Shown: piece by piece, positions 1,546 through 24,481 of the stretch
How the letters are laid out: every line of letters begins with the position of its first letter
Position numbering within the stretch: the stretch's first letter is position 1
Origin: Candidatus Magasanikiibacteriota bacterium
Lineage (GTDB): Bacteria; Patescibacteriota; Patescibacteriia; Magasanikbacterales; UBA922
Direction of reading: 5' to 3'
Assembly (NCBI GenBank): GCA_041674805.1
Contig: JBAYVA010000004.1
Coordinates: forward strand, 30,069 to 94,068
Length of the DNA: 64,000 nucleotides
The notes under the pieces: generated by a model
The model's input: only the letters and a program-made list of their open reading frames with translations
Databases searched by the model: none
Told to the model about the DNA's origin: nothing
Translations under genes and position numbers: made by a program

Positions 1546-4500
1546 ATGAGTCGTTTTGTCTTAAATCAAGTTTTGAAAATAAAAAACTTGTTGTCAAAAA
1601 TATTACCAAAAAAATTATCCAAATATCATTATTTGGCATTTTTTGTTTCTTCAATTATTTTAGTTTTTATTTTTTCTAGTCATAGTGTAATTGCTGAAGG
1701 TAGTACAGATGTTTTCGGTGGTATCGGTAATTGGGTATCTGGTGCTTTGTTGACTTTTGCTAATTTAGCTATTTTGTTGAGTATTTTCTTTTTGAAATTT
1801 TTTATTCATTTAGCTAGTTACAACAATTATATTGATGTAAATGTCGTAAAAATTGGTTGGGTGATGGTACGTGATGTAGCTAATATGTTCTTTGTGGTTG
1901 CTTTGCTTATTATTGCTTTTGCTACTATTTTAGGTATTGAAAAGTATGAATGGAAAAAAGGCCTAGTCAAGTTGATTGCTATGGCTATTTTGATAAATTT
2001 TAGTAATTTGATAGCTCAAGTTATTATTGATGTAGCTCATGTTTTTACAATTACTTTTTTGAATGCTATTTCTGCTAGTGCTGGTGGTAATTTGATCAAC
2101 ATGTTTGATTTGGCTGAAATAAATACAATGGTTCATGGTAGAGAGCTTGGTTCTGATATGCAACAAGCCAATTATGCCATATTTGGTGCTGCTGTGTTGG
2201 CTCTTATTTTTTCGGTTATTACAGCGGTAACCTTGGGAGCTTATGCTATCGTGATGGCTGCTCGTGTGGTGGTATTGTGGGCTTTGATCATTTTGTCTCC
2301 ATTGGCTTATCTTTTGTCAGCTTTGCCTGATGGTGACAAATATGCTAGTAAATGGTGGTCAGAGTTCAACAGGCATGTGATAGTCGCTCCGGTAATGGTT
2401 TTTTTCTTATGGTTGGCTTTTGCTACTTTTGGTAGCGGCAATATTATGGCTGAAATAAGTAAAAGTGCGACCGTACCTTTGGATACTGGTAGTATTCCTA
2501 CTTCTATATCTTTGTTAGAAGTTTCTACTTGGGAAAATATGGCCAGTTTTATTTTGGGTATTATATTTTTGGTGATTGGTCTAAAAATGACACAGGAAAC
2601 AGGAGCAACTGCTTCTGGTATGGTAAGTGCTGCTGTAGATTGGGGTAAGAAAGTGGCTACTATTGCTAGTGGTTATGCTCTGGGTAGATGGATGGTGGGT
2701 AAGGGCAAGGATGCTGTTATAGAAAACACACCTATTGTTGGTATGCGATCTTTAAGACGTTACGGTAAACAAATAAAAGGTGTTACTACTTATCCATTCA
2801 AAAGATTTGCTATTGCACGTGATGGGCAAGTTCAAAATTTAGAAAAAAAACGAGAGGATGCAAAAAAAGAAGGTAAAACTTTTAAAAGTTTTGCTTTGGG
2901 TGCTGCTGTACTTGGAGCTACAGCTCTTTGGAGTTCTTCAAAAAGAAAAGACACTCTGGCCGATAATTGGGAGGATATTGCTGAACATATGGATAGAGAG
3001 CATGAAGCAAAAATATCTACAAGTAGAACTCCAAGTGGTGATTTAAAACAAACTGCTCGTGTGAGAGCTGATTTTGCTGTGGAAGCTAAAGATACAAAAG
3101 GTCCTCAAAAAGGTGCTGAACGTGCTTTAAAACTTATAAAAGAAAATGATAAATCAGTAGTAGATTCTTTGAAGGCTATGTCTTCATCAAAATCAAAAGG
3201 TGAGGTTGTAACTGGTTTAGTTGATGAAGTTAAACGTGAAAAATATTTGAAAGAAAGAGATAAAGATCAAATTTTAGACAAAAAAACAGATGATGATACT
3301 TATATGAAAATTTTGGCACGAAAGAAAGTTTTTAATGAAAAATTTCAAGAAACTGTTGATACTGATAGGGATTTAATGCAAGAAGATACTAGATTACATT
3401 TACATGATACAGATGATAATTATAAAAATTTAGATAATAGATCTACAGAAGCTGGAGAAAGATTGACTCAAGCAAAAAATTTATATGCTAAACGTATGGA
3501 TGAAGGCTCTGCTGTTGAAAAAGCTAAACTTATGGAAGATGATAAATTCAAGAAGAGAGAGCAGGAGTTTGGAACTCTTGAAGCTAGAACAAAAGCTATA
3601 ACAGAAGATGTTAATTCTCAAAAAGAATTATATTTATTGAAAGCTATTAAAGAGATTTTAGGAGAAATAACATTAGATACAAAAGGTAATATGACTGGTC
3701 CAGAAGATAATGTTTATAGAAGATCTTTTGTTTCTAAAGCGGCTGTAGAGAGATTGAAAGATGGTGTGGAAAGAACACAAATTTCTTCGTTGGCTTCAGC
3801 TAGAGCAGAAGGATATGAAAAAGAATCTGATGATTTACGTGCTAATTCTGTAAGAAAAAATGCTGCAGCTGAAATACAAAAAAGAGATACTGAAATGTTT
3901 GCTAATTTGAGTTATCAAGATAGACGTTTATTAGAGCAGACATTGATTGTCAAAATTCAAGAAGCTGAGGATAAAGGAGATACAGATCTTTTGAAAAAAC
4001 TTAGAATGCAAAAAAATTCTTTGACTACTTTGAATATGTTAGATGACGCTGAAACTTCTCGTGATACTCGTATTGATGCTTTAGATAAATTGGGTATTAA
4101 CGAATTAGGAGATAAAAATCGTTTAAAAGCAGAATTGCAAAGACGTCTTGGTGTTCATACAACAAAACTTGAAGCAGTTTCTATGGATGAGGGCGAACAA
4201 ATAGCATATCTTCAAAAACTTTTTGATGATTTATATGAAGGTCAAGAAGTTCAAAAACAGATTGTTTTGGAACAAATAGAAAAAGCTATGAAATCTGTTG
4301 CTATGAAAGGTGATGAATATGGTCTTGGTCTTATCAATTCAACACCAAGTAGTGATGATATAGCTTCTGGTACAATAACAAGATCTTGGAAAAGTAAAGC
4401 CGATAATGACGAGACAGATTATTTTGCTACAAGAGCTAGAGGAGTTGATAGTATTGAAGGTTATGCTAAATTAAAGAAAATTGGTGATAAATATAAAATA

Positions 4501-4800
4501 AATGGTTTTTCTAAAAGAGGGGTAAACTCAGTTTCATTTTTTTTCAAAGGTGTTGATTCTCGTTCTATGGCAGCAGAGAGTATGAAATCTGTAAGTAGTT
4601 CTGTTAATGAAGCTTCTGTTGATTCATCAAATGTAGATGAATATTTGGATTTTTTAGAGAAAACAAAAAGTTTAATGCAAAGTAGTGGTTATGAAACAGC
4701 AAAAAAACAGTGGGAACCTTTTATTGAAAAATTGGAAGCTGAGGCAGATTTTAAACAAAAGGAAAGATTAAAAGAAATTTTAAAAAAAAAGGAAGATTAA
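1546..4800 (+). CDS. VirB6/TrbL-like polytopic membrane protein with long charged coiled-coil C-terminal extension
   Basis: First roughly 420 aa hold 7-9 predicted TM helices in a TrbL/VirB6-like arrangement. The remaining roughly 650 aa are K/E/D-rich and heptad-like. It heads an operon with PrgI-like and VirB4 genes. Confidence 0.45.
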   Translation: MSRFVLNQVLKIKNLLSKILPKKLSKYHYLAFFVSSIILVFIFSSHSVIAEGSTDVFGGIGNWVSGALLTFANLAILLSIFFLKFFIHLASYNNYIDVNVVKIGWVMVRDVANMFFVVALLIIAFATILGIEKYEWKKGLVKLIAMAILINFSNLIAQVIIDVAHVFTITFLNAISASAGGNLINMFDLAEINTMVHGRELGSDMQQANYAIFGAAVLALIFSVITAVTLGAYAIVMAARVVVLWALIILSPLAYLLSALPDGDKYASKWWSEFNRHVIVAPVMVFFLWLAFATFGSGNIMAEISKSATVPLDTGSIPTSISLLEVSTWENMASFILGIIFLVIGLKMTQETGATASGMVSAAVDWGKKVATIASGYALGRWMVGKGKDAVIENTPIVGMRSLRRYGKQIKGVTTYPFKRFAIARDGQVQNLEKKREDAKKEGKTFKSFALGAAVLGATALWSSSKRKDTLADNWEDIAEHMDREHEAKISTSRTPSGDLKQTARVRADFAVEAKDTKGPQKGAERALKLIKENDKSVVDSLKAMSSSKSKGEVVTGLVDEVKREKYLKERDKDQILDKKTDDDTYMKILARKKVFNEKFQETVDTDRDLMQEDTRLHLHDTDDNYKNLDNRSTEAGERLTQAKNLYAKRMDEGSAVEKAKLMEDDKFKKREQEFGTLEARTKAITEDVNSQKELYLLKAIKEILGEITLDTKGNMTGPEDNVYRRSFVSKAAVERLKDGVERTQISSLASARAEGYEKESDDLRANSVRKNAAAEIQKRDTEMFANLSYQDRRLLEQTLIVKIQEAEDKGDTDLLKKLRMQKNSLTTLNMLDDAETSRDTRIDALDKLGINELGDKNRLKAELQRRLGVHTTKLEAVSMDEGEQIAYLQKLFDDLYEGQEVQKQIVLEQIEKAMKSVAMKGDEYGLGLINSTPSSDDIASGTITRSWKSKADNDETDYFATRARGVDSIEGYAKLKKIGDKYKINGFSKRGVNSVSFFFKGVDSRSMAAESMKSVSSSVNEASVDSSNVDEYLDFLEKTKSLMQSSGYETAKKQWEPFIEKLEAEADFKQKERLKEILKKKED

Positions 4801-4869: not shown

Positions 4870-5889
4870 TTGTTTTTTATGAATAATGATTTACAAATAA
4901 AAAAAATTATTCAAAATAATAATTTTTCTGAGGTTGAAATTAAACTTAGAAAAATTATTATTGATCCTGTTGCTAAGGATGTCTTTTGGGGTATATTGGA
5001 TGAGGATTATTCTTTTGCGGATAATAAAAAAATACAAAATGATTGGTGGAAATTATATAGAATGTATGTAGAAATTTGTTGGAAAAAAATGCCAATGTTG
5101 CATATTGAATTTGTAAATAATCATTTATTTGCAAAACAATTAGTAATTGCTAGTGTACTTAAATTTGAACCTATTGAAACTTTATTAAACTATTTGGGTT
5201 CTAGATTTCTTTTGGAAGAAGAACAAATGTCTGAATATAAAAAAATAAAAGAAAGTATTTTCAATTCTAATATTGTTTTAGGTACATATAAAGGAAAAAA
5301 TGTTATTCAAAAAGAATTAATACAAGAAATTACAGAATTAAATAGTAAAAGTAACCCTACATTGGAGTTAGCTAATTTAAAAGCAAAATTAGAAGAAATA
5401 TTTTTTTCTAATTTTCCAAATGATTTGAATTTTGATAATTTTTTTGTAAATAAAAGAGAAGTTGTTGTAACATTTTTTTCTTTTGTACATTTTTTGATAG
5501 GTGTTCAACCAAAAAGTATTTCAAGATTTATTGATTTGTATTTTAATGGTAAAGAAATACTGAATAAATCAGAATTCTCTAATATCAATAATGCTTTGGA
5601 CGAAATAGTCAATTTAGATACTGACATTGTTGAAAATATAGAAAACAATGAAGATCTTTTATCTAATAGTACAAGCAATTTAGACAATAAATATTTGCAA
5701 ATCAAATCCCAACTAGAACAACAATTTTCTTATGATGAAAATGGAGAGTTGACTCCAATAGAAGAAGTTTTGAATATTTTGTCTCAAATGGCGGAAGAAC
5801 AAGGTGATGTAAATATTGAAGAGTTGTATATGTTTGATGAAAATGCTGGTAAGTTTGTCTGGAACGAAGAATTAACTAATGCTAAATAA
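4870..5889 (+). CDS. hypothetical protein (T4SS-cluster associated)
   Basis: Long ORF co-directional within the T4SS-like operon; no recognisable motifs. Confidence 0.5.
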   Translation: MFFMNNDLQIKKIIQNNNFSEVEIKLRKIIIDPVAKDVFWGILDEDYSFADNKKIQNDWWKLYRMYVEICWKKMPMLHIEFVNNHLFAKQLVIASVLKFEPIETLLNYLGSRFLLEEEQMSEYKKIKESIFNSNIVLGTYKGKNVIQKELIQEITELNSKSNPTLELANLKAKLEEIFFSNFPNDLNFDNFFVNKREVVVTFFSFVHFLIGVQPKSISRFIDLYFNGKEILNKSEFSNINNALDEIVNLDTDIVENIENNEDLLSNSTSNLDNKYLQIKSQLEQQFSYDENGELTPIEEVLNILSQMAEEQGDVNIEELYMFDENAGKFVWNEELTNAK

Positions 5890-5891
5890 GT

Positions 5892-7148
5892 ATGGCCGAT
5901 AATAAACAAGCCACAATTTTGGTAAAAAAAGCTGACGGTACAAAAGTACGCGTTACTCTTGAGGAATTCAAAAAAATGCGTGAAGGAGAAAAGGGGAATG
6001 GAGAAACATCCCAAACGTCTGGCAAGAGCGGAATGAGTGACAATGAACAGAATGTGATGAACAATGAGCTAATAACCCCGCTAGAAAATAATATTCAAGA
6101 AGAAAAAATGTTTGTCACTTCAGCTTCTGTACCTCTATCACCAGCTGTTACATTGTTAGAAAATGAACAAGTTTTAGCAAAAGAACAAAATGATGTACCT
6201 GTAGCAGAAGAAAATGAATTGGCAACAACTACACCAGTGACAGATATTTTTGTCAATGAAGCTGCTGCAAATTTTGAATGGGGTCAAAAAGACAATGAAT
6301 CACTTTTAGAAGAAGACAACAAAGAAGTAGTGGCTTTGCAAAACAAAGGTAAAGTGCATGTGGCTATGCATGATTTGAATGAACATATCAAAATGCCTAG
6401 TATGGGAATAGATGATGATATGAAAAATCGTGCTAAATCTTTGCTTATTTCTTGGCAAAAAGGTATTAGAAATGATTATCAGATTTTGGATTATGCTAAA
6501 CGAGATATCAATCACGGTGGTCTTGGTTTGGATGATGATCAAGCCAATAGATTTTTGAATCAAATAAAAAATTACAAAAATAATTTAGACAATTTGTTTG
6601 AAATAGTTTTTGAAAAAAAGAAACAACAAGTTATCTTGAATACTAATACAAAAAATGTTGTTGATGCTACATCAAAAAATGAAGTCCTAAACATAAATCC
6701 AGAAAATTTTAGAAAAGAAATTGCCAAAAATACTATTACAGATGATAATTTTTTTAGTGCTCCTTTTTCTCATACGCCACCAAAATCTGTTGTTTATGAT
6801 GTGGCTTCACCACAATCATTGAAACAAAAAACAACTGGACCAAAACAAGAAATATCCGAATTTTCATTAGTAGAATTTCGTCGTTTTGCCAAAGATCCTT
6901 ACAAATGTGCGGATATGTTATTTTCAAAATTTCAATCTTGGAAACAAGAATCTTATTTGTTGTTTTTAGATACTATGGAAGGTTGGCACTTGAGTCCTTT
7001 GTACAATATGTATGTCAGAGCAACCTTGGAAGCTTTCAACAAACATATTACTTTACAACAATTTTTTCAGACAAAAAATCCTAATGATTTTATTACTTTT
7101 GAAGAATACAAAAGTTTGATAGAGTTAAACGACAAGTTAAGTAAGTAG
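5892..7148 (+). CDS. hypothetical acidic protein (T4SS-cluster associated)
   Basis: Start sits 3 nt after the upstream stop; D/E-rich; no recognised domain. Confidence 0.5.
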   Translation: MADNKQATILVKKADGTKVRVTLEEFKKMREGEKGNGETSQTSGKSGMSDNEQNVMNNELITPLENNIQEEKMFVTSASVPLSPAVTLLENEQVLAKEQNDVPVAEENELATTTPVTDIFVNEAAANFEWGQKDNESLLEEDNKEVVALQNKGKVHVAMHDLNEHIKMPSMGIDDDMKNRAKSLLISWQKGIRNDYQILDYAKRDINHGGLGLDDDQANRFLNQIKNYKNNLDNLFEIVFEKKKQQVILNTNTKNVVDATSKNEVLNINPENFRKEIAKNTITDDNFFSAPFSHTPPKSVVYDVASPQSLKQKTTGPKQEISEFSLVEFRRFAKDPYKCADMLFSKFQSWKQESYLLFLDTMEGWHLSPLYNMYVRATLEAFNKHITLQQFFQTKNPNDFITFEEYKSLIELNDKLSK

Positions 7149-7153
7149 TTTTT

Positions 7154-7591
7154 ATGCAACAGTTTGTAGTACCACAATTTATTGAAGTAGAAGACAAAAT
7201 TTTTGGTCCAATTACAGTGAGACAGTTTCTTATATTATTAGTCACTGGTACTATTATCTTTTTTTCTTTTCGTTATGGAGATTTTTATTTGTTTCTTTTG
7301 TGCTTAGTTTTTTTTGGAGGTTTGGGTCTTATTTTCTCTTTTGTAAAAATAAATGGACAAAATTTTCATTATTTCATATTGAATGTTATACAAAGTTTAA
7401 AAAAACCAGATTTGCGTGTTTGGCACAAACATTATGACAAAGTTGAATTAAATTATTTACGTAAACGTGTTTTTGTTGTAGAGAGTGTTGACAAAAAACA
7501 AAAAAAAGTTCAAAAAAAACATATTAGAGATTTGGCTTTACTGGTGAATACTGGAGGATTTTATAAACCAGATGATGATTTTTCTTTTTAG
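7154..7591 (+). CDS. PrgI/VirB3-like small membrane protein
   Basis: N-terminus VPQFIEVEDKIFGPITVRQFLILL matches the PrgI-family pattern (P..L..V.TK..F.LT.RQ) followed by two TM helices; lies immediately upstream of VirB4. Confidence 0.5.
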   Translation: MQQFVVPQFIEVEDKIFGPITVRQFLILLVTGTIIFFSFRYGDFYLFLLCLVFFGGLGLIFSFVKINGQNFHYFILNVIQSLKKPDLRVWHKHYDKVELNYLRKRVFVVESVDKKQKKVQKKHIRDLALLVNTGGFYKPDDDFSF

Positions 7592-7652: not shown

Positions 7653-8339
7653 ATGCAAAATAAAAAAGCTTTAAAAAAAATAAACAAAAAACCAAATACG
7701 CAGACATATTTGCCTATTGCTGAAATTAGAGATGATGTTGTGGTTTTGAAAGATGGCACTTTGCGAGCAGTACTTATTACTTCTAGTATCAATTTTTCTT
7801 TGAAATCAGAAGACGAACAAAATGCTACAATTTCTTCTTATGTAGGATTTTTGAATTCTTTGGATTTTCCTATTCAAATTAGTGTGCAATCTAGACGTTT
7901 GCAAGTCAAACCTTACTTAGAGAAATTGATGGACCAAGAAAAAAAACAAACAAACGAATTATTGCGCATCCAAACAGCTGATTATCGTTCTTTTATTGAA
8001 GAGTTAGTAGATATTGGCAAAATAATGACCAAAAAATATTATGTGATAGTTCCTTATGATCCTTTGTCTAATAATAAAAAAAGTTTTTGGTCAAGGTTCA
8101 AGGAAGTTGTCAAACCAGCAATTTCTTTACGTCTAAAAGACGAAAGATTCAAACAAAGAAAAGATGGTTTGGAAATGCGTGTTAGACAAGTATCTAGTGG
8201 TTTGGAAAATATGGGTTTATCTGTAGCGCAGTTAGATACACAATCATTGATAGAATTATATTATAATACTTACAATCCAGATATTGCTTTTGCAGAACAA
8301 TTGGGTGATATCGAAAAACAGCAAATAGAGGAGTTGTAA
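7653..8339 (+). CDS. VirB4/TrbE-like ATPase, N-terminal domain fragment (split gene)
   Basis: YLPIAEIRDDVVVLKDGTLRAVLITSSINFSLKSEDEQ...FPIQISVQSRRL resembles the VirB4 N-terminal (CagE/TrbE/VirB) domain. It stops 38 nt before the ATPase ORF. Confidence 0.5.
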   Translation: MQNKKALKKINKKPNTQTYLPIAEIRDDVVVLKDGTLRAVLITSSINFSLKSEDEQNATISSYVGFLNSLDFPIQISVQSRRLQVKPYLEKLMDQEKKQTNELLRIQTADYRSFIEELVDIGKIMTKKYYVIVPYDPLSNNKKSFWSRFKEVVKPAISLRLKDERFKQRKDGLEMRVRQVSSGLENMGLSVAQLDTQSLIELYYNTYNPDIAFAEQLGDIEKQQIEEL

Positions 8340-8377: not shown

Positions 8378-10255
8378 ATGCCTTTTAGACCTATTTCAAG
8401 CAGTAATATAAAAAACTTCAAAGATTACGAGCTTGAAGATAAAGAAAAAATAAAAATTAAAGAAGATTTAATATCTCTTGAAGAAGAGCGTGTTTATCGT
8501 GAAGGTACGGTGGCAATACGTGATCTTATTGCGCCCTCAGCTTTCAAAGTAGAACCAAATTTTTTACAATTGGGTGATACTTTTTTGCGTACTATTTTTG
8601 TAACTAGTTATCCTCGTTATATTGGAGTTGGTTGGAATGCTTCTATCCTCAATTTGAATTTGAGTATGGATGTTAGTATGTTTTTTTATCCTGTTAACTC
8701 TGCGGTAATTTTGAAACAATTAAAAAATAAAGTAGGTGCTTTGCAAGCACAATTGTCTTCAGACGCTGAAAAAGGCGCTGCCCGTGATCCTTTGAGAGAG
8801 ACAGCTTTACGTGATATAGAATCTTTGCGAGATGATTTGACTCAGGGTACTGAACATTTTTTTCAATTTGCTTTTTATATTACACTGTACTCAACAAGTA
8901 AAGAAGAATTGGACAAACAAACTGATGATTTGCACAATATTTTTGGTTCAAAATTGATTCATAGTAAACATGTTTTGTATCAATCTGAACAAGGCTTCAA
9001 TTCTACAATACCATTGGGAGTAGATGAATTAGTTATTTCTTTTAACATGAATTCATCTCCGATTGCAGCTTCATTTCCTTTTATATCCTCAGAGCTTACT
9101 AGTGATGATGGTATTTTGTATGGTATCAACAGACATAATAATAGTTTGATTTTGTTTGATAGATTTTCTTTGCAAAATGCCAATATGGTAGTATTTGCTA
9201 CTTCTGGTGCTGGTAAATCTTATGCTGTAAAATTGGAAATTTTGCGTAGTTTGATGATGGGTATTGATGTAATTGTAATTGATCCTGAAATGGAGTATGT
9301 TCATTTGTCTGAAGCTGTAAATGGTACTTATGTAAATATTTCTTTGGCTTCTGATAGTAAAGTAAATCCTTTTGATTTGCCAAGACCTGTTGGTCAACAA
9401 GTTTCAACTGAAGATGTGATTAGAAGTGCTGTCATTACTTTGAAAGGTTTGTTGCGTATTATGTTAGGTACTATAAATTCTACAGAAGATTCTATTTTGG
9501 ATAGAGCTTTGCTTGAGACTTATGCCAAAAAAGATATTACTATAAATAGTGATTTGTCTACTGTTGAAGCGCCTGTGATGCAAGATTTGCTGGATGTTTT
9601 GTCTGGTATGGATGGAGCTGAAAATTTAGTAATTAGATTAAAAAAATATACAGATGGTACTTTTGCTGGCTTATTCAATTCTCCAACCAATGTAAATACA
9701 AGTAATCAACTTGTGATATTTAGTGTGCGTGATTTGGAAGATGAATTGCGTCCAATGGCTATTTATACTTTGGTCAATTATATTTGGAATATTGTGCGTT
9801 CTGAAAAAAAGAAAAGATTACTTATGATAGATGAAGCTTGGTGGCTTATGATGCACGAAGATAGTGCCAAATTTATGTATGCTTTGGTCAAGCGTTGTCG
9901 TAAATATTTCTTGGGAGTAACAACTATCACTCAAGACGTCAATGATTTTTTGCGTTCTCCTTATGGACAAGCTATTGTGAACAACTCATCTATGCAATTG
10001 CTTTTAAAACAATCTCCTTCAGCAATTGATACTATTCAAAAGACTTTTATGTTGACAGAAGGTGAAAAATATTTGCTTTTGGATAGTCCGGTAGGACAAG
10101 GTATTTTCTTTGCTGGCAACAAACATGTGGCTATTCAAGTAGTTGCTTCTTATACTGAAGATCAATTGGTCACTACCAATCCTCAACAGCTTTTGGAAAT
10201 AGAAAGAGCCAAAAAAGATTTTCAAGATAAAATGAATAATGAGTATTTATCATAA
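8378..10255 (+). CDS. VirB4/TrbE-like conjugal-transfer ATPase, ATPase domain
   Basis: Walker A VVFATSGAGKSYAV, Walker B/DEAW motif LLMIDEAWWLM, and ITQ motif in GVTTITQD, all typical of VirB4/TraC. Confidence 0.65.
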   Translation: MPFRPISSSNIKNFKDYELEDKEKIKIKEDLISLEEERVYREGTVAIRDLIAPSAFKVEPNFLQLGDTFLRTIFVTSYPRYIGVGWNASILNLNLSMDVSMFFYPVNSAVILKQLKNKVGALQAQLSSDAEKGAARDPLRETALRDIESLRDDLTQGTEHFFQFAFYITLYSTSKEELDKQTDDLHNIFGSKLIHSKHVLYQSEQGFNSTIPLGVDELVISFNMNSSPIAASFPFISSELTSDDGILYGINRHNNSLILFDRFSLQNANMVVFATSGAGKSYAVKLEILRSLMMGIDVIVIDPEMEYVHLSEAVNGTYVNISLASDSKVNPFDLPRPVGQQVSTEDVIRSAVITLKGLLRIMLGTINSTEDSILDRALLETYAKKDITINSDLSTVEAPVMQDLLDVLSGMDGAENLVIRLKKYTDGTFAGLFNSPTNVNTSNQLVIFSVRDLEDELRPMAIYTLVNYIWNIVRSEKKKRLLMIDEAWWLMMHEDSAKFMYALVKRCRKYFLGVTTITQDVNDFLRSPYGQAIVNNSSMQLLLKQSPSAIDTIQKTFMLTEGEKYLLLDSPVGQGIFFAGNKHVAIQVVASYTEDQLVTTNPQQLLEIERAKKDFQDKMNNEYLS

Positions 10256-10877
10256 ACTAATTGCTATTTTTATGTTTACATTTAGACAAAGAATTTTTAT
10301 TTTTTCTGGTATTTTTGTGGGATTGGTTTTGGTTATTTTATTATATTTTTTTTATATAAAACCAAAAAACAATAAGCAAGAGAACACACCAGAAGTTGTG
10401 GTCAATGAAAATATTGTAGACAGCAATAATCCTAATTTAATTTTTGATAATTTAGCAAATAATAATCAAGTTATAAGTAAACCAGACGGAACACCAGAAG
10501 AACAATTTTTGAAACAGATGTCTAGATTTTTTGTAGAAAGATTTTTTACTTATTCTAATCAAAATAACAATGTTCATATTGTAGAATTACAAAGTTTGGC
10601 AACACCAAGTATGAATACTTGGATGAATACACAAATGAGAAAAAAAGAGCAAGACTATAGTGGTGTTACTACTAGAGTTTTTAGTATGTCTCTTATTAAT
10701 TTTGACAAAAATTTAGCAAAAGCTTCTGCCATGGTAGATGCTGAACATGTTATTTCTATTGAAAAAGATAATCAAGTAGAACAAAGTAAAACACAAAAAA
10801 AATACCAAGTAGATTTTGAATACGTTGATAATACTTGGAAAGTCTCAGCTGTTTGGGACAAAACTTTAAGCAATTAA
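10239..10877 (+). CDS. single-pass membrane protein, possible VirB8/PrgL-like
   Basis: N-terminal TM helix plus a roughly 160-aa extracytoplasmic domain. Its position after VirB4 mirrors Gram-positive T4SS order. No motif-level proof. Confidence 0.3.
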   Translation: MSIYHKLIAIFMFTFRQRIFIFSGIFVGLVLVILLYFFYIKPKNNKQENTPEVVVNENIVDSNNPNLIFDNLANNNQVISKPDGTPEEQFLKQMSRFFVERFFTYSNQNNNVHIVELQSLATPSMNTWMNTQMRKKEQDYSGVTTRVFSMSLINFDKNLAKASAMVDAEHVISIEKDNQVEQSKTQKKYQVDFEYVDNTWKVSAVWDKTLSN

Positions 10878-10885
10878 TTTTTTAT

Positions 10886-11578
10886 ATGATTTTGGGAGGA
10901 ATTGTCAATTCTTTAAAAGATATTTTTTTTCCAGTAAATTGTTTAAACTGTGCCAAAGAAGGTGCTTTTGTTTGTAATGAATGTTTTGAAACACTAGATT
11001 TGTCTGGTGTTTTTTGTTGTCCTATTTGTCACAAAGAAACTATTGATGGAAATTATTGTGATAATTGCCAACCTTTGTTTATAGACAAACATGTCGCTGC
11101 TATCAAATATTTAGAAACAGATTTGATAGGGGAGATAATCCATAATTTCAAATATCAGTATGTAGAAGATTTGGATAAAATAATTGAAAAAATGTTGATA
11201 AATTTTTTTGCAAACAAAAAAATAAGTGATATAGATTTAATAACTTTTGTGCCTTTGCATAGTCGTAGATATGTAGAAAGAGGATTCAATCAAGCTGAAA
11301 AAATAGCAATACTTTGTGGTAAAATTTTACATAAGCCGGTTACTAATTTACTCAAGAGAACTCGATATACACATCCACAAGCTCAGTTCAAAAGACAAGA
11401 AAGATTAGTGAATTTGCAAAATGCTTTTTCTTTAGAGAATAAAAAAGATGTGTTTGCCAAAAATATTTTGGTAGTTGACGATGTATTTACTACAGGTTCT
11501 ACTATTCAGGAGTGTGCTAAGGTCTTAAAATTGCATAAAGCTGCTAATGTATATGGTTTTAGTTTAGCTAGAGGTTGA
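10886..11578 (+). CDS. comFC: ComF family protein (ComFC-like, zinc-ribbon + phosphoribosyltransferase domain)
   Basis: CLNCAKEGAFVCNECF...CCPICHKETIDGNYCDNCQ double zinc ribbon and C-terminal PRTase motif ILVVDDVFTTGSTI. The start is set at the MILGG Met rather than the overlapping upstream TTG. Confidence 0.7.
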   Translation: MILGGIVNSLKDIFFPVNCLNCAKEGAFVCNECFETLDLSGVFCCPICHKETIDGNYCDNCQPLFIDKHVAAIKYLETDLIGEIIHNFKYQYVEDLDKIIEKMLINFFANKKISDIDLITFVPLHSRRYVERGFNQAEKIAILCGKILHKPVTNLLKRTRYTHPQAQFKRQERLVNLQNAFSLENKKDVFAKNILVVDDVFTTGSTIQECAKVLKLHKAANVYGFSLARG

Positions 11579-11599
11579 TTAATTATAAAATTAGACAAA

Positions 11600-11631
11600 A
11601 AAATATCGCTTTTTATTGCGATATTTTTTTA
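11600..11631. terminator. bidirectional rho-independent terminator (comFC / dsbB convergent)
   Basis: Hairpin aatatcgc-ttttatt-gcgatatt flanked by A-run and T-run. Confidence 0.6.
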
Positions 11632-11642
11632 TGTTTACAAAG

Positions 11643-18895: not shown

Positions 18896-21800
18896 ATGTA
18901 CGTAAAAAAACTTGAGATAAATGGTTTTAAATCTTTTGCCAGTAATACTGTAATAGATTTTCCTGCACCAAAAAATTCTGGACAATATAGTGTTACTGCT
19001 ATTGTCGGTCCAAACGGTAGTGGTAAGAGTAATGTTGTAGATGCTATTCGTTGGGTGTTGGGTGAACAAAGTATGAAGCATCTTCGTGGCAAAAAAAGTG
19101 AGGACGTTATTTTTGCAGGTTCAGAAGGTAAAGGGAAAATGGGCTTGGCTAGTGTTACAATGTTATTAGATAATAAAGATAAAAGAATAAAAATAGATTA
19201 TGATGAAGTAGAAATTTCTAGAAAAATTTATCGTTCAGGTGAAAGTGAATATTTATTAAATGGTAGTCCAACTAGATTGTTGGATTTGCAAATTCTTTTG
19301 GCACAAGCACAATTTGGTCAAGGATCTTATTCTGTAATTAGTCAGGGTACTATTGATAGACTACTTTTGCAAACACCGGCAGAAAGAAAGAATTTTTTTG
19401 ATGAAGCTGTTGGTATCAAAGAATTTCAAATCAAACGTCATCATGCTGTCTTAAAACTTAATAAAACACAAGAAAATATCAATCAAGCAGATTTGATGCT
19501 CAAAGAAATAGAACCTCATTTGAAAAATTTGAAACGTCAAGTTGGTAAATTGGAAAAAAGACAAGAAGTAGAAATATCTCTACGTGATTTGCAAGAAAAG
19601 TATTATTTTACTTTGCATGATAATTTGTCTTTGGATTTGGAAAAATTGCAATCAGAGCATGACAATGTTAGTAAAATTTATGAAGAAGTGAATGTTCGTC
19701 TTTTGTCTGTCCAAAATGAATTGTCAAAATTAGCTCAAGAAAAATCTAGACAAGAAGTTTTTACAGAGTTACAAGATGAATATCAAAAGCTTTTACAAGG
19801 AAAAAATTCTTTGGAAAGAGATCAAGCTATTGTTTCTGGAAAGTTGCAAACTGAATTTGGTAAAGTAGGTAAACAAAATATTGGTTGGCTTGAATCCAAA
19901 ATAGATGAATTTTTGCAACAAGAAAAAAATATTGAAAAAGATATTGAAGGGCAAGATAAAAGAAAAGAAGAAATTTCTAATAAAATGAAGTCTGTTTCTT
20001 TGGATATTGAAGATTTTCAAAATAAAAAAATAAAATTACAAAACAGACAGTTGGAAATAGAACACAATTTAAATGAATTAAAACAAGGCAAAGATAGTAT
20101 TCAATTTGAAGGTTTGCGTGCTGTTAATGCTATTTTGATGCAAGTTCCTGGCAAATTTGGTGGCAAAGTACACGGTTTGGTGGCGCAGTTGGCCAAAGTA
20201 GACGAAAAGTATCGTTTGGCTTTGGAAGTGGCTGCTCAGGCTCATCTGGGTGCTATTGTGGTAGAAAATGATAGTGTCGCTCAATCAGCTATTGAATTTT
20301 TGAAAAAGCAACAATTGGGATTTGCAACATTTTTGCCTTTGAACAAAATAAAAGGACGTTTTGTACCAAATGATATCAAAGAGTTAGAAAATACTACTGG
20401 TGTTTATGGTTTGGCAGTAAACTTAGTAAATTATGATCTTATTTACGATGATGTTTTTTCTTATGTTTTTGGTTCTACTTTGATTGTAGAAAATATAGAT
20501 ATTGCTCGCAAAATAGGCATTGGGCGTGTACGTATGGTAACTCTGGAAGGGGATATCATGGAAACTAGTGGTTCTATGAAAGGTGGTTTTAGACATAGTA
20601 AAAAAGGAGTTTTGTCTTTTGCTGGTGGCAATCAAGATTTTAGTGAATATGCTTATGAACAATTGAAACAAGAACTTTTGGAAAATAAAATCAAGTTGGA
20701 CAAAATGGAAATAGCTATTGAAAATCTCAAAGAAAATTTGATGGAACAACGTATGCAAGAGCAAATGCAAAGTCAAAAAATTGGACTTTTACAAAATAGT
20801 TTGAAAGATGTTTCTAAAGAATTATCACAGTTTAAACAAGAATTATCAATGCATACTTTGTCAAAAGAAGAATATAGTGAAATGATGAATACTTTTTCTA
20901 GTCAAAAAGAAGAATTGTCAACAAAAATACAAGTTTTGGAAGATAATATCTCACAAGTAAACAAAAAAATAGAACAATTGAATGCTGAAGAAGAAGCTAA
21001 AAGACAAAGAATTTTTTCTTTGCAAGATAGTATGCAAGAAGAACAAGAATCTTTGAATAAGCAAGCTGATGAAAAACATAAGTTGCAAGTAGAAATTGTA
21101 AAATTACAAACACACAGAGAAGATTTGGAACAAGAAATTTTTACAGAATTACAAGAAGGTATTGGTAATATAAAAGTAAGATTGACTGACAAATTTTTGC
21201 AAGAAGAATTGGAGTCTTGCAAAATTGAAATAGAAAAATTGAAATATCAATTGTCTTTGATTGGGGGAATTGATGAAAGTGTGATGGGTGAGTATGAAGA
21301 GATAAAAGCTCGTTATGATTCATTATCTTTTGAATTGGATGATTTGAGTAAAGCTTCTGCTGATTTGGAAAAAATGATTGAAGAGTTAGACAAGTTGATG
21401 AAGAAAAAACATAAAGAAAGTTTCAATAAAATTAAAAAAGAATTTAGTAGATATTTCAAAGTATTATTTGAAGGTGGTAGTGCTGAGTTGGTAGAAGTGT
21501 ATGGTACTGAAAAAGATGAAGATGAGATGGTATTAGAAGGTGAAGTACTTTCAAGTGAAAATTTGCAGGAAACTGATGATTTGGGAAATCCTGTAGAAAA
21601 GAAAAACAAAAGAAAAATTTTGACAGGTGTGGAAGTCTATGCTTGTCCTCCAGGGAAAAAAATAAAAAATATTTCAGCACTGTCTGGTGGTGAGAGAACT
21701 ATGACGTCTATTGCACTTCTTTGTGCTATTTTGCATACTAATCCTTCACCATTTGTAATTTTGGACGAAGTAGAAGCTGCTCTTGATGAAGCCAATACAA

Positions 21801-21958
21801 CTCGTTTTACCAAGATTTTGACAGAGTTGTCTTTACAATCACAATTCATCGTTATTACTCATAATAGAGTGACTATGCACGCTGTAGATGTACTCTACGG
21901 TGTAACAATGGGTAATGACGGTATTAGTAAATTGCTTAGTGTCAAATTGGATAATTAA
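18896..21958 (+). CDS. smc: chromosome segregation protein SMC
   Basis: N-terminal Walker A GPNGSGKSN, long coiled coils, hinge, C-terminal signature LSGGERTMTSIALL and Walker B FVILDEVEAALD. Confidence 0.85.
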   Translation: MYVKKLEINGFKSFASNTVIDFPAPKNSGQYSVTAIVGPNGSGKSNVVDAIRWVLGEQSMKHLRGKKSEDVIFAGSEGKGKMGLASVTMLLDNKDKRIKIDYDEVEISRKIYRSGESEYLLNGSPTRLLDLQILLAQAQFGQGSYSVISQGTIDRLLLQTPAERKNFFDEAVGIKEFQIKRHHAVLKLNKTQENINQADLMLKEIEPHLKNLKRQVGKLEKRQEVEISLRDLQEKYYFTLHDNLSLDLEKLQSEHDNVSKIYEEVNVRLLSVQNELSKLAQEKSRQEVFTELQDEYQKLLQGKNSLERDQAIVSGKLQTEFGKVGKQNIGWLESKIDEFLQQEKNIEKDIEGQDKRKEEISNKMKSVSLDIEDFQNKKIKLQNRQLEIEHNLNELKQGKDSIQFEGLRAVNAILMQVPGKFGGKVHGLVAQLAKVDEKYRLALEVAAQAHLGAIVVENDSVAQSAIEFLKKQQLGFATFLPLNKIKGRFVPNDIKELENTTGVYGLAVNLVNYDLIYDDVFSYVFGSTLIVENIDIARKIGIGRVRMVTLEGDIMETSGSMKGGFRHSKKGVLSFAGGNQDFSEYAYEQLKQELLENKIKLDKMEIAIENLKENLMEQRMQEQMQSQKIGLLQNSLKDVSKELSQFKQELSMHTLSKEEYSEMMNTFSSQKEELSTKIQVLEDNISQVNKKIEQLNAEEEAKRQRIFSLQDSMQEEQESLNKQADEKHKLQVEIVKLQTHREDLEQEIFTELQEGIGNIKVRLTDKFLQEELESCKIEIEKLKYQLSLIGGIDESVMGEYEEIKARYDSLSFELDDLSKASADLEKMIEELDKLMKKKHKESFNKIKKEFSRYFKVLFEGGSAELVEVYGTEKDEDEMVLEGEVLSSENLQETDDLGNPVEKKNKRKILTGVEVYACPPGKKIKNISALSGGERTMTSIALLCAILHTNPSPFVILDEVEAALDEANTTRFTKILTELSLQSQFIVITHNRVTMHAVDVLYGVTMGNDGISKLLSVKLDN

Positions 21959-22171: not shown

Positions 22172-24481
22172 ATGAGTATACACGATGCAATTAAAGAAGG
22201 TGAACATACACAGGAGTTTCAGCCTAGTGTTGCTGAAGCGAAGAATGAAACTCATCAAAAAATAATAGAACTTTTGGAAAATGTACCTGCTGTCCTTAAT
22301 AGTGAAGTGGCTACTACTAAACAGCTAGTTTTTGAGATGATAGAAAGAGCAAAATCTGTTGATCTTGATGCTGAGGATATCTCCGCATTTGAGGATGCTA
22401 TGAAAAATATTGTGAAAGAACTGGAAGTGCTTGCGCAGAAAGTACAGATACAATTGAATGCTATTCAAGCTACTAATGAATTAGTTGCTAGTGGTATTCT
22501 TTCTGTAGAAGATGTACCTGAAGCAGATCCTATAAATTTGGGTGTTTTTCAACAAAGTGTTAGATCAGTGATGTCTCAGGTCAGTGGTGAATTGTCAGCT
22601 ATTGTTAATAAAAATGTACAAGAAAGGTATCGTAGAAGAGCTAGAATTAATTTTGCTGACACATTAAACAGATCTGGATTGAAAAGTTCTCATATAGAAT
22701 TATTTACCATTCCTCCACTTGAACCTTCAGATGTCTTGCAAAAACAAAGGGTAGCTTTTGAGAATGCAAAAAATTCGGCTTCTTTGTCTCAAGATGTGTT
22801 AACAAGAGCAGAAAATAATTTAAGAGCATTAGAACAAAAAGAACAAATTGCCTGGGATGCTTCACACGCTGGCAATTCTGAAGAGATTGCACTTTTGGAT
22901 AGTATTCGTACTGCTTTGGATACGGGAACCTTGGATAAATTATTTGCTAAAAAAGGATTTGATACTGAAAAAGCTGTTAAATTGATTGCTACTCAAATTC
23001 GTGAGAAAGCATTTTCTCTTGATGGTATAGGTAATGATATATTAAAAGAACTTCCAGAAGAAGTTATAAAGGCTATTGTGCAAGATATGTCTGATGAGGA
23101 AATGTGGAAGACTATTAGAGAAATGTCTATGATTGTTGCTGGGAAAAAAACAATTTCATACATATACATAAGCAAACCATACCAGGAAAGATCAAAAAAA
23201 TTAATAAGAACACAGGCAGATGCAATAAAAGTTTTTGATGATTTTTCTATTTATAATAATACATTGGGAAGATTGGTTGATGCTTTGAAAGAAAAATCGG
23301 TAGATAAAAATAATATTCGTGATAAGGCGGTAATGGAATTAAAGGATGTGGCTATAGCTATAAAGGTAATGAAAGATAGTAATGATCCTAATTTGACGTA
23401 TGTTAATTTATTTCCAGATGTACAAGATGATTTTGATAAGTTTATAGAACAAATTGAAACATCTCCAAATTTACAACCTTCTGATATCTTCCAATTTGTT
23501 ACAAAAATTAAGGAGACTTTGTTTCATCCAATAAATAGAATCAAAGAAACTTCATACATTAGTTCTTCTGCTGTAGATGGGGCCACTAGTCTGTATCAAG
23601 ACCAATTGAGGCAATCAGAAGCAAAAAACAGTAGGGAAAGAGAAATTAAGGGAGTAATTAGTGGTGTTTTGAGTGAGTTGTTATCATATAAAGTAGATGA
23701 TTATATAAGAGAAAAATTTGACCTTAATAAGTTAGAAGGTCATTTAAGTTCTATTTCTGCATCTGTTCACGATTATATTTGTGCTGTAAAACTTTGTGAA
23801 TTGCAAGAGCAAGCATATAGAGAATTTAGGAGCAAACCTTTTTTGGGTCAAAATAGAAAAATAGAATTGACTGATGCTCAAAAAGATGCTATTACAGCTA
23901 TTGCACAACTAGAAGGTCAAGAAGATCCTGGTGTTGGGGGAATTAAATTTGTTGATTATAATAAAGAAAGGAATAAAATGTCAGTAAAAAGAGGTATTAT
24001 GGAAGAAAAGAGGATGATTGTTATAAATCAAGTATCTAGATTTAGTACGCCAAATCTAGCTGTGATCAGTAACCTCATGCCCACAAGAGAACAAGTGGTA
24101 TCTTCTGTTTTAGAAAAATTAAAAAGAATTGAAGAAAAAAAATTGGGTGGAAGCTTTTATGTTGATGAATCATTGTTGAAAATAGAAGCCGAAACGTTTG
24201 TTCCTGATATAAAAGAATTACAAAGATCAATAGCAAAAAAAATACTTGCAACAGCAAAAAAATATATGGATTTGCTAGATAAAGCAATAGTATCTTATGA
24301 TACTAAAAATATAGAGGGAATGCAGATAGAATTATCTAATATGGAGACTGTTAATGAAAAAGTAGATTCTTCTTATAAAGAAGTAGTTACTTCTGGAGGA
24401 GGGGGACGTGTGTTGGGAGTATTACAATCTGTTAAGAAGGATCTTCAAGAAATGTTAGATGGTTTTTCAAAATATGAATAA
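22172..24481 (+). CDS. large hypothetical protein (769 aa, predicted all-alpha/coiled-coil, no TM)
   Basis: Long uninterrupted ORF; no recognisable catalytic motifs. Confidence 0.55.
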   Translation: MSIHDAIKEGEHTQEFQPSVAEAKNETHQKIIELLENVPAVLNSEVATTKQLVFEMIERAKSVDLDAEDISAFEDAMKNIVKELEVLAQKVQIQLNAIQATNELVASGILSVEDVPEADPINLGVFQQSVRSVMSQVSGELSAIVNKNVQERYRRRARINFADTLNRSGLKSSHIELFTIPPLEPSDVLQKQRVAFENAKNSASLSQDVLTRAENNLRALEQKEQIAWDASHAGNSEEIALLDSIRTALDTGTLDKLFAKKGFDTEKAVKLIATQIREKAFSLDGIGNDILKELPEEVIKAIVQDMSDEEMWKTIREMSMIVAGKKTISYIYISKPYQERSKKLIRTQADAIKVFDDFSIYNNTLGRLVDALKEKSVDKNNIRDKAVMELKDVAIAIKVMKDSNDPNLTYVNLFPDVQDDFDKFIEQIETSPNLQPSDIFQFVTKIKETLFHPINRIKETSYISSSAVDGATSLYQDQLRQSEAKNSREREIKGVISGVLSELLSYKVDDYIREKFDLNKLEGHLSSISASVHDYICAVKLCELQEQAYREFRSKPFLGQNRKIELTDAQKDAITAIAQLEGQEDPGVGGIKFVDYNKERNKMSVKRGIMEEKRMIVINQVSRFSTPNLAVISNLMPTREQVVSSVLEKLKRIEEKKLGGSFYVDESLLKIEAETFVPDIKELQRSIAKKILATAKKYMDLLDKAIVSYDTKNIEGMQIELSNMETVNEKVDSSYKEVVTSGGGGRVLGVLQSVKKDLQEMLDGFSKYE

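What the first reader, a model, noticed from the sequence alone, without database searches (positions are those of the whole stretch)
1546..4800. VirB6-like protein carries a roughly 650-aa highly charged coiled-coil C-terminal extension
Residues 1 to about 420 are polytopic, consistent with a VirB6/TrbL channel subunit. Residues from about 430 to 1084 are devoid of TM segments and dominated by K/E/D/R heptad-like repeats such as KLEAEADFKQKERLKEILKKKED. This rod-like appendage fused to a channel subunit could be a stalk, spike or adhesin reaching a host cell. It is unusually large for VirB6.
Basis: partly seen in the sequence, partly recalled or inferred. Interest (0 to 1): 0.5.

Follow-up and report, generated by a model that had tools for sequence, protein, structure and literature searches.

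The report
Extended VirB6 with novel folded tail
This gene encodes the membrane-channel subunit (VirB6) of the chromosomal type IV secretion system of a Magasanikbacteria (CPR) genome; its long charged tail is not a coiled-coil spike but a flexible linker carrying a compact, clade-specific domain of unknown fold that most likely sits inside the cell.

Summary
The 1084-aa ORF (1546-4800, +) is real and 100% identical to a hypothetical protein of a Ca. Magasanikbacteria MAG. Its hydrophobic N-terminal third is VirB6-like. The only convincing PDB fold matches are R388 TrwI/VirB6. Some homologs weakly hit Pfam TrbL. The gene heads a conserved operon: virB6 - X - Y - prgI/virB3 - trsD - virB4 - virB8-like - comF.

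The tail is TM-free and 38% charged, as reported, but it is not a heptad coiled coil. A heptad test gives z=0.8, against 6.7 and 8.4 for the SMC arms in the same window. There are no internal repeats.

Charge distribution across 120 homologs, together with the canonical VirB6 topology, places the tail in the cytoplasm. I therefore read it as a tethered docking or adaptor module, not an adhesin.

Every complete ORF of this family but one is 927-2164 aa, so the size is normal for its clade. It is a new variant of the known "extended-VirB6" class.

The parts
1546..4800 (+). Complete ORF, 1084 aa: extended VirB6-like subunit. Identical to NCBI MAG protein WC070_04815 of Ca. Magasanikbacteria.
1546..1695 (+). 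Residues 1-50. Lys-rich N-terminus (7 K/R, no acidic residue) followed by hydrophobic helix 27-49 and the sequence 'SVIA/EG'. This is a signal-anchor or cleavable signal-peptide-like segment.
   Evidence: (N-terminus net +4.6 in 92% of homologs); the cleavage site is an inference
1723..2601 (+). Residues ~60-352: highly conserved hydrophobic helical core with a VirB6/TrbL-like fold. Invariant residues in the 120-sequence alignment include F116, T127, G130, N151, D162, R240, W245, P252, P282, W289 and W329.
2602..2928 (+). Residues 353-461: conserved amphipathic helix (G353, G356, K368, G376, R381) and basic juxtamembrane region. It contains the non-conserved semi-hydrophobic stretch 447-462.
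2929..3135 (+). Residues 462-530: conserved ~70-aa motif (R..K...DW..AE....E..(Y)STS...GG..K). It has low pLDDT in the monomer model. It co-occurs with the class-A C-terminal domain (21/24 loci) and is absent from the long class (1/36).
3136..3459 (+). Residues 531-638: poorly conserved, highly charged linker. Helices are predicted, but at pLDDT 40-60.
3460..4737 (+). Residues 639-1064: compact C-terminal domain, mostly alpha-helical with two small beta-hairpins (AF2 pLDDT 91, pTM 0.83). It is family-specific and has no known sequence or fold relative.
4738..4797 (+). It extends beyond the C-terminal end of all 13 homolog tails in alignment A5.
4870..5889 (+). Gene X, 339 aa: acidic (net -21), no TM or signal peptide, no known family. 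Found immediately downstream of virB6 in 51/70 related loci.
5892..7148 (+). Gene Y, 418 aa: soluble, acidic, no known family. Conserved in 64/70 related loci.
7154..7591 (+). PrgI-family (VirB3-like) membrane protein, 145 aa.
   Evidence: (PF12666, E=3.6e-7)
7653..8339 (+). TrsD/TraC-like protein, 228 aa, corresponding to the N-terminal part of VirB4.
   Evidence: NF045975, NF041427; PF26593 in the orthologous locus
8378..10255 (+). VirB4 ATPase, CD1110 family (MPF_FATA type), 625 aa.
   Evidence: NF045971, 354 bits against a cutoff of 325
10239..10877 (+). Bitopic 212-aa protein with one N-terminal TM and a weak TraE (VirB8-like) hit. Conserved in related loci.
10835..11578 (+). ComF-family protein, always directly downstream of the cassette in the loci examined. 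A terminator-like hairpin follows at 11595-11632.

Best explanation
The ORF encodes the VirB6-type platform/channel subunit of the chromosomal, relaxase-less, MPF_FATA-related type IV secretion system typical of Patescibacteria, here in a Magasanikbacteria genome. It is an 'extended-VirB6'. A conserved hydrophobic VirB6-fold core (residues ~60-352) is followed by a ~730-aa hydrophilic module. That module comprises a basic juxtamembrane segment, a conserved 70-aa motif, a flexible charged linker, and a compact ~425-aa mostly helical domain found only in this protein family. The module is not a coiled coil.

It most likely lies in the cytoplasm, tethered beneath the presumed pentameric VirB6 platform (pentamer by analogy with R388). 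There it would act as a docking or adaptor module. Candidate roles are recruiting or positioning the VirB4/TrsD ATPase, binding the two conserved soluble proteins X and Y, or receiving substrates. The last role would partly substitute for a coupling protein, since none is encoded in the locus.

Shown: the architecture, the conservation, the absence of heptads, the VirB6-like fold, and the operon context. Inferred: the cytoplasmic location and the adaptor role.
For: VirB6 identity:
- Foldseek top hits are the R388 TrwI/VirB6-containing stalk entries 7o3v_J/G/F and 8rtd_L (prob 0.99-1.0, TMt 0.43-0.54).
- PF04610 hits in 3/21 homologs (best E=2.3e-5).
- Precomputed PF19590/PF04610 annotations on about 30 of 120 homologs.
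- Operon with PrgI, TrsD and a CD1110-type VirB4, syntenic in L001 and L005-L007.
- The literature describes VirB6 homologs next to virB4 in Patescibacteria (PMC12102498).

Not a coiled coil: heptad z=0.8 against 6.7 and 8.4 for SMC; no repeats.

Folded domain:
- AF2 pLDDT 91, pTM 0.83.
- Conserved motifs across divergent homologs.
- Present at the C-terminal end of 57/120 homologs.
- Only 74 hits among 1.84e9 representative proteins. Nearly all are 900-1300 aa with the match at the C-terminal end.

Cytoplasmic placement:
- No conserved TM after residue 351.
- The tail start carries K+R 21 against D+E 13, with K+R greater than D+E in 96% of homologs. The N-terminus is also basic, and loops 50-61, 176-206 and 299-328 are acidic.
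- Best C-in K+R score 27.9 against best C-out 7.1.
- Canonical VirB6 (Agrobacterium, Brucella, ComB6) has a cytoplasmic C-terminus (PMC7648143).
- Neighbours X and Y lack signal peptides and TMs and are conserved.

No relaxase or T4CP was found among the 20 ORFs scanned against Pfam or NCBIfam between 56 and 27661.
Against: - Topology is inferred from charge bias only; no dedicated predictor or experiment was available.
- VirB6 topology is itself contested. In R388 most hydrophobic helices sit in the periplasmic stalk (PMC12857230).
- Other extended-VirB6 tails are extracytoplasmic: the F TraG C-domain, and Anaplasma VirB6-3/-4, which are surface-exposed.
- The tail evolves much faster than the core (identity 0.09-0.2 against 0.4-0.75), and at least two non-homologous tail classes exist. 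That pattern also suits a host-contact surface.
- Direct profile comparisons with PrgH and TrwI were not significant.
- The protein itself passes no Pfam or NCBIfam threshold.
- No interaction with X, Y or VirB4 was tested.
- The X-versus-tail-class association (Fisher p=0.003) is confounded by phylogeny.
Confidence: 0.55

Rival explanations
1. Extracellular host-contact module. The tail is exported, and its ~250-aa flexible linker lets the globular domain cross the thin cell wall to bind the host cell. It would stabilise the epibiont-host junction, like the F TraG C-domain in mating-pair stabilisation or the surface-exposed tails of Rickettsiales VirB6 paralogs. Different tail classes would reflect host specificity.
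For: - Analogous extended-VirB6 tails are extracytoplasmic (PMC7648143; F TraG, PMC4027160).
- The tail diverges fast and comes in at least two non-homologous classes of 927-2164 aa.
- The epibiotic lifestyle of Patescibacteria and the essentiality of their T4SS (PMC12857230).
- In R388 most of VirB6 lies outside the membrane.
Against: - The region following the last TM is strongly basic in 96% of homologs. The best C-out topology scores 7.1 against 27.9 for C-in.
- No extra conserved TM is available to flip the tail.
- 38% charged, K/E-rich, no Cys, no cell-wall-binding, adhesin or repeat domains.
- The adjacent conserved partners X and Y are signal-less soluble proteins.
Confidence: 0.22
2. 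Cis-tethered translocated cargo. The tail starts in the cytoplasm, but the C-terminal domain is cleaved off or threaded through the channel and delivered into the host cell. This has been proposed for some extended-VirB6 proteins.
For: - The proposal exists in the literature for Rickettsiales VirB6 and F TraG.
- The long, low-confidence linker could serve as a leader.
- The locus has no T4CP, so an unconventional substrate route is conceivable.
Against: - The domain is confidently folded and large, so it would need unfolding.
- No protease site or secretion signal was identified.
- It would be stoichiometrically wasteful for a structural subunit.
- There is no evidence here beyond compatibility.
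Confidence: 0.08
3. One reading: a rod-like coiled-coil stalk or spike fused to the channel.
For: High K/E/D/R content and predominantly helical secondary structure.
Against: - The heptad score is indistinguishable from shuffles (z=0.8), while SMC arms in the same window give 6.7 and 8.4.
- The longest predicted helix in the tail is ~42 residues.
- Residues 639-1064 fold into a compact domain with pTM 0.83.
- No repeats.
Confidence: 0.03

Closest known systems
Extended-VirB6 subfamily (Alvarez-Martinez & Christie concept; e.g. F-plasmid TraG, SXT TraG, Rickettsiales VirB6 paralogs, and MPF_FA Orf15/TcpH/ConG of 700-900 aa)
   Same: A polytopic VirB6/TrbL-like hydrophobic region with five or more hydrophobic helices, plus a large C-proximal hydrophilic domain, encoded in a T4SS locus with VirB3 and VirB4.
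   Different: - The hydrophilic module has no detectable sequence or fold relative among the solved structures or Pfam families searched. No direct comparison with other extended-VirB6 tails was made.
- It is attached to an MPF_FATA-type system, whose VirB6 proteins are normally ~300 aa (PMC12857230; PrgH 266 aa).
- It has no tandem repeats, unlike Anaplasma VirB6-3/-4.
- It is predicted to be cytoplasmic, unlike F TraG and the Anaplasma tails.
Patescibacteria chromosomal T4SS (Quinonero-Coronel et al. 2025, PMC12102498; Southlakia epibionticum T4SS, Wang et al. 2023 as reviewed in PMC12857230)
   Same: The same gene set (VirB6, PrgI/VirB3, TrsD, VirB4 of the MPF_FATA-related clade), a chromosomal housekeeping context, and no relaxase nearby.
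   Different: Text searches of the 2025 paper found no mention of the VirB6 C-terminus, an extension or a coiled coil (only 6 of the 8 T4CP/relaxase and VirB6 passages were read in full). No VirB2-like pilin array was recognised next to this locus, though this was not specifically searched.
R388 TrwI / Agrobacterium VirB6 (minimal VirB6, ~300-340 aa)
   Same: Best structural match of the N-terminal core. Canonical N-out/C-in topology is compatible with the charge pattern.
   Different: No significant sequence-profile similarity. About 730 extra residues. Monoderm context with no VirB5, B7, B9 or B10.

Membership tests
VirB6/TrbL superfamily | Sequence match to TrbL/VirB6 profiles (PF04610, PF19590) | tested here: inconclusive
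   - The window protein has no Pfam or NCBIfam hit at E<=0.1.
- 3 of 21 close homologs hit PF04610 (best E=2.3e-5).
- P0113 scores 16.4 bits against a cutoff of 25.9.
- About 28 of 120 homologs carry precomputed PF19590, but the local Pfam copy did not reproduce this.
- hhalign against TrwI and PrgH single sequences was not significant.
VirB6/TrbL superfamily | VirB6 fold (bundle of long hydrophobic helices as in R388 TrwI) | tested here: met
   The AF2 core has pLDDT 80-93. The top five Foldseek PDB hits are all from R388 TrwJ/TrwI stalk entries, at prob 0.96-1.0, TM 0.43-0.54 per target and 288-314 aligned columns. E-values are only 0.05-0.2.
VirB6/TrbL superfamily | Polytopic membrane protein with at least 3-5 hydrophobic helices | tested here: met
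   Seven or eight hydrophobic segments between residues 27 and 351, conserved across 120 homologs.
VirB6/TrbL superfamily | Encoded with VirB3 and VirB4 in a T4SS locus | tested here: met
   PrgI, TrsD and a CD1110-type VirB4 lie within 3-5 kb downstream. The order is conserved in L001 and L005-L007 and in most of 70 loci.
VirB6/TrbL superfamily | Pentameric assembly at the centre of the machine | not testable with these tools
   No multimer prediction or experimental data were available.
Extended-VirB6 subfamily | Five or more hydrophobic helices plus one or more large central or C-proximal hydrophilic domains (definition in PMC12857230) | tested here: met
   The hydrophobic core ends at residue 351. 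About 730 hydrophilic residues follow, including a folded ~425-aa domain.
   z=0.8 against shuffles, compared with 6.7 and 8.4 for the SMC arms in the window. Low 3.5-residue Fourier power. AF2 predicts a globular domain. Dedicated predictors (Marcoil, DeepCoil) were not available.
Surface adhesin / extracellular appendage | Extracytoplasmic location of the tail | tested here: not met
   The positive-inside analysis on 120 homologs favours C-in. This is a computational inference only; it was not tested experimentally.
Patescibacteria MPF_FATA-related T4SS | VirB4 of the CD1110/PrgJ type, plus PrgI and TrsD, chromosomal, without a relaxase | tested here: met
   - NF045971 scores 354 bits against a cutoff of 325.
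- PF12666 hit for PrgI.
- TrsD hit NF041427.
- The neighbours are housekeeping genes: AsnRS, ComF, DsbB, Trx, Hsp20, ClpP, SMC.
- Only ~28 kb of the window was scanned for a relaxase or T4CP.

The most novel reading that the evidence does not exclude
The C-terminal ~425-aa domain is a previously undescribed fold that, together with the conserved 70-aa motif and the neighbouring proteins X and Y, forms a VirB6-tethered cytoplasmic substrate-receptor or energising platform. This platform would replace the type IV coupling protein in the T4SS of this clade. Alternatively, the domain is an exported host-recognition head whose alternative classes set host range.
Probability: 0.25. Interest if true: 0.7.

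Novelty: new variant of a known kind. Interest (0 to 1): 0.42.

Why it matters
The T4SS is essential for epibiotic growth in Southlakia epibionticum, the only Patescibacterium tested so far. What it transports, and how substrates are recruited without a dedicated relaxase or locus-encoded coupling protein, is unknown. In at least 533 species-level genomes, mostly titled Magasanikbacteria, the VirB6 subunit belongs to this family. In every complete ORF examined but one it carries 600-1800 extra residues. In about half of the homologs examined, that extension includes a well-folded domain found nowhere else. This gives a concrete, clonable handle for pull-downs, structures and topology mapping on how these minimal cells couple their T4SS to cargo or to the host. 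It also corrects the general statement that MPF_FATA-type VirB6 proteins are ~300 aa.

Tried and rejected
1. Coiled-coil rod: rejected by the heptad test with internal SMC controls, Fourier periodicity, the repeat search and AF2.
2. Hidden extra TM at 447-462 that would flip the tail outward: rejected. It is not conserved, and close homologs have an Arg within the equivalent segment.
4. Direct profile link to PrgH or TrwI by hhalign: not significant.
5. tblastn of the core against 72,556 plasmids: no match.
6. Co-variation of neighbour X with tail class as evidence of interaction. The initial BLAST suggested X only in class-A loci. Iterated HMMs then found X in many non-A loci. The residual association (p=0.003) is confounded by phylogeny, so it is not used as evidence.
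7. Known families for X and Y: none in Pfam, NCBIfam or PDB sequences.
8. The afdb50 fold library was unavailable.
9. The promoter scan was uninformative: 65 hits against 55.7 expected.
10. The Teng et al. 2008 TcpH topology paper is not held. The TcpH comparison therefore rests on my memory and is not used as evidence.
Full report
**1. The observation**

The ORF at 1546-4800 (+) is real and encodes 1084 aa. It is 100% identical to the hypothetical protein WC070_04815 of a Candidatus Magasanikbacteria MAG, on a 743,922-bp contig.

Kyte-Doolittle analysis finds strongly hydrophobic segments only between residues 27 and 351. From residue 401 onward each 100-aa block has 30-45% K/R/D/E. Residues 430-1084 are 38% charged, net -6, and contain no Cys. 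So 'polytopic N-terminus plus long TM-free charged tail' is confirmed.

The 'heptad-like repeats' are not confirmed.
- A register-optimised a/d occupancy score for residues 430-1084 is indistinguishable from shuffled sequence (mean 0.12 against -0.01, z=0.8).
- The two coiled-coil arms of the SMC protein encoded in the same window (18896-21958) give z=6.7 and 8.4. GCN4 and tropomyosin behave as expected.
- Fourier power at period 3.5 is low everywhere.
- Self-BLAST and TRF detect no internal repeats.
It lies beyond the conserved region and is absent from the 13 homolog tails aligned with it.

**2. The N-terminal domain**

The protein itself has no Pfam or NCBIfam hit. Family-level evidence still makes it VirB6-like.
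- (a) A database search finds 427 homologs, essentially all from Patescibacteria MAGs. About 30 of the best 120 carry precomputed PF19590 (TrbL_3) or PF04610 (TrbL). Three of 21 close homologs hit PF04610 locally, with best E=2.3e-5.
- (b) An AlphaFold2 model built on 67 sequences gives pLDDT 80-93 for residues ~60-380. Its top five Foldseek matches in the PDB are all chains of the R388 TrwJ/TrwI (VirB5/VirB6) stalk entries. These score prob 0.96-1.0, TM 0.43-0.54 normalised to the target, and 288-314 aligned columns. Further chains of the same entries and DotA rank lower.
- (c) The gene context is that of a T4SS (section 3).

Direct hhalign comparisons with single PrgH (pCF10) and TrwI (R388) sequences were not significant. 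tblastn against PLSDB plasmids found nothing. Membership therefore rests on fold and context, with only weak sequence support.

**3. Genomic context**

Downstream of the ORF lie:
- two soluble acidic proteins without known families (X, 4870-5889; Y, 5892-7148);
- a PrgI-family/VirB3-like protein (7154-7591);
- a TrsD/TraC-like protein equivalent to the VirB4 N-terminus (7653-8339);
- a CD1110-type VirB4 (8378-10255; 354 bits against a cutoff of 325);
- a bitopic 212-aa protein with a weak TraE/VirB8-like hit (10239-10877);
- ComF (10835-11578).

Terminator-like hairpins bracket this block, at 1318-1347 and 11595-11632. The surroundings are housekeeping genes: AsnRS, DsbB, thioredoxin, Hsp20, ClpP and SMC. 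No relaxase or coupling protein appeared among the 20 ORFs scanned.

The same order (VirB6-X-Y-PrgI-TrsD-VirB4-B8-like-ComF) is found in four independently fetched loci. A scan of one genome per GTDB species found 533 genomes with a relative. The named records among the 80 loci kept are mostly Magasanikbacteria. In 70 loci with a complete VirB6 ORF, Y is present in 64 and X in 51.

This matches the chromosomal, relaxase-less, MPF_FATA-related T4SS described for Patescibacteria (PMC12102498). That system is essential for epibiotic growth in Southlakia epibionticum (PMC12857230).

**4. Anatomy of the extension**

Across homologs the core (residues 81-400) is 50-75% identical to the query. The tail is only 9-20% identical.

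AF2 gives low confidence (pLDDT 30-60) for residues 385-660, where it predicts helices of no more than 42 residues. It gives very high confidence (88-98) for residues ~730-1080. Modelled alone with 57 sequences, residues 638-1084 reach mean pLDDT 91 and pTM 0.83. The result is a compact, mostly alpha-helical domain with two small hairpins.

An iterated local HMM shows this ~430-aa domain at the extreme C-terminus of 57 of 120 homologs, nearly all of them in the 900-1270-aa range. Nearly all of the 1300-1870-aa homologs have different tails. Alignment of divergent members shows genuine conserved motifs, for example AE.RA..Y...GD..RA, NLSY, EINDxNRL, K.AA.KGD..G.GLI, YFA.R, GFS and GKD.RA.

A conserved 70-aa motif (residues 462-530; DW..AE...E..YSTS..GG.K) accompanies this domain in 21/24 loci. 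It is absent from the long class (1/36).

The domain has no known relative.
- No Pfam family.
- No PDB sequence relative.
- No significant Foldseek PDB hit: best E 0.14, TM<0.25, with weak alpha-solenoid-like matches only.

A profile search of 1.84 billion representative proteins returns only 74 hits. Nearly all are 900-1300 aa with the match at the C-terminal end. The short ones appear to be fragments. The domain is therefore specific to this VirB6 family.

**5. Which side of the membrane?**

No conserved hydrophobic segment follows residue 351. The semi-hydrophobic 447-462 stretch is not conserved, and only 12.5% of homologs have any 17-aa window with KD>=1.4 after residue 360.

Across 120 homologs the charge pattern is as follows.
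- The N-terminus is net +4.6 (92% have K+R greater than D+E).
- The ~95-124 residues after the last TM carry 21 K+R against 13 D+E (96% have K+R greater than D+E).
- Loops 50-61, 176-206 and 299-328 are acidic.

Enumerating topologies by K+R bias gives 27.9 for the best C-in model against 7.1 for the best C-out model. Two self-consistent models both place the tail inside. One has eight TMs with N-in. The other has a cleaved signal peptide plus five or seven TMs, which is the canonical VirB6 N-out/C-in arrangement. Agrobacterium, Brucella and H. pylori VirB6 homologs have cytoplasmic C-termini (PMC7648143).

X and Y have no signal peptide or TM and are acidic. This fits cytoplasmic partners of a basic tail, but that remains an inference.

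There are caveats. VirB6 topology is contested after the R388 structure. The F TraG and Anaplasma extended tails are extracytoplasmic. Fast divergence of the tail would also suit a host-facing role.

**6. Mechanism proposed**

Shown: this is an extended-VirB6 whose extension is a tethered globular domain on a flexible charged linker, not a rod.

Inferred, with roughly 55% confidence in the whole statement: the module hangs into the cytoplasm from the VirB6 platform, next to the VirB4/TrsD ATPase. It serves as a docking or adaptor element, for X and Y, for the ATPase, or for substrates. It may compensate for the absence of a locus-encoded coupling protein.

Rivals:
- an exported host-contact head (~22%);
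- a cis-tethered translocated or cleaved cargo (~8%);
- the coiled-coil spike (~3%).

**7. Comparison with what is known, and novelty**

'Extended-VirB6' proteins are a recognised subfamily whose extra domains have unknown function (PMC12857230). Known examples include MPF_FA proteins of 700-900 aa, F TraG, and Rickettsiales paralogs of up to 9,935 aa. MPF_FATA VirB6 proteins are said to be ~300 aa; PrgH is 266 aa.

Here an MPF_FATA-related Patescibacteria system carries a VirB6 of 1084 aa. In its clade all but one of the complete ORFs are 927-2164 aa. Text searches of the Patescibacteria T4SS survey found no comment on VirB6 length or tails.

I classify this as a new variant of a known kind. 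It is ordinary within its clade and already present in databases as 'hypothetical protein'. It nevertheless carries an uncharacterised, apparently novel-fold domain.

**8. Verdict**

- Observation: partly confirmed.
- Interpretation: partly supported. The VirB6 assignment holds; the coiled-coil spike or adhesin does not.
- Interest: moderate (0.42).

Noticed in passing
window 10835-11578; L001 19461-20168; L005 20503-21285; L006 20306-21043; L007 18261-18971: A ComF-family (competence) gene lies directly downstream of the T4SS cassette in the window and in all four orthologous loci inspected. This conserved T4SS-ComF linkage recalls DNA-uptake T4SSs such as ComB. Its meaning is unknown.
   Followed up: partly
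window 4870-5889 and 5892-7148: Two conserved soluble acidic proteins, X (339 aa) and Y (418 aa), sit between virB6 and prgI. Neither has a Pfam, NCBIfam or PDB-sequence relative. Y is present in 64/70 related loci and X in 51/70. They are candidate partners or substrates of the system.
   Followed up: partly
window 7653-8339 and 8378-10255: VirB4 is split. A 228-aa TrsD/TraC-like protein corresponding to the VirB4 N-terminal region precedes a 625-aa CD1110-type ATPase.
   Followed up: partly
window 10239-10877: A bitopic 212-aa protein with one N-terminal TM and a weak Pfam TraE hit (E=0.0013) is conserved in related loci. It is probably the VirB8-like component. Its ORF overlaps the end of virB4 and the listed start of comF.
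   Followed up: partly
L013, L019, L021, L029-L032, L072, L074 and others: A second class of family members, 1300-2164 aa, shares the VirB6 core but has a different, unrecognised C-terminal region. It lacks both the class-A domain and the 70-aa motif. No Pfam domains were found in five of these proteins.
   Followed up: partly
L008, L010, L020, L022, L023 and many others: Many GTDB genome records that carry this Patescibacteria-type locus are titled 'uncultured Gammaproteobacteria bacterium'. These titles look like mislabels from an automated binning submission.
   Followed up: no
window 1-64000: GC skew is positive across almost the whole window (cumulative 7.2), and nearly all long ORFs are on the + strand. 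The window appears to lie within one replichore with strong leading-strand gene bias. G+C is about 24-35%.
   Followed up: no
window 22172-24481, 24511-25083: ORFs of 769 aa and 190 aa have no Pfam family at E<=0.001. They were not examined further.
   Followed up: no
P0017, P0113: Precomputed annotations list PF19590 (TrbL_3) for several homologs. The local Pfam-A copy returns no such hit at E<=0.01, which may be a Pfam version difference.
   Followed up: no
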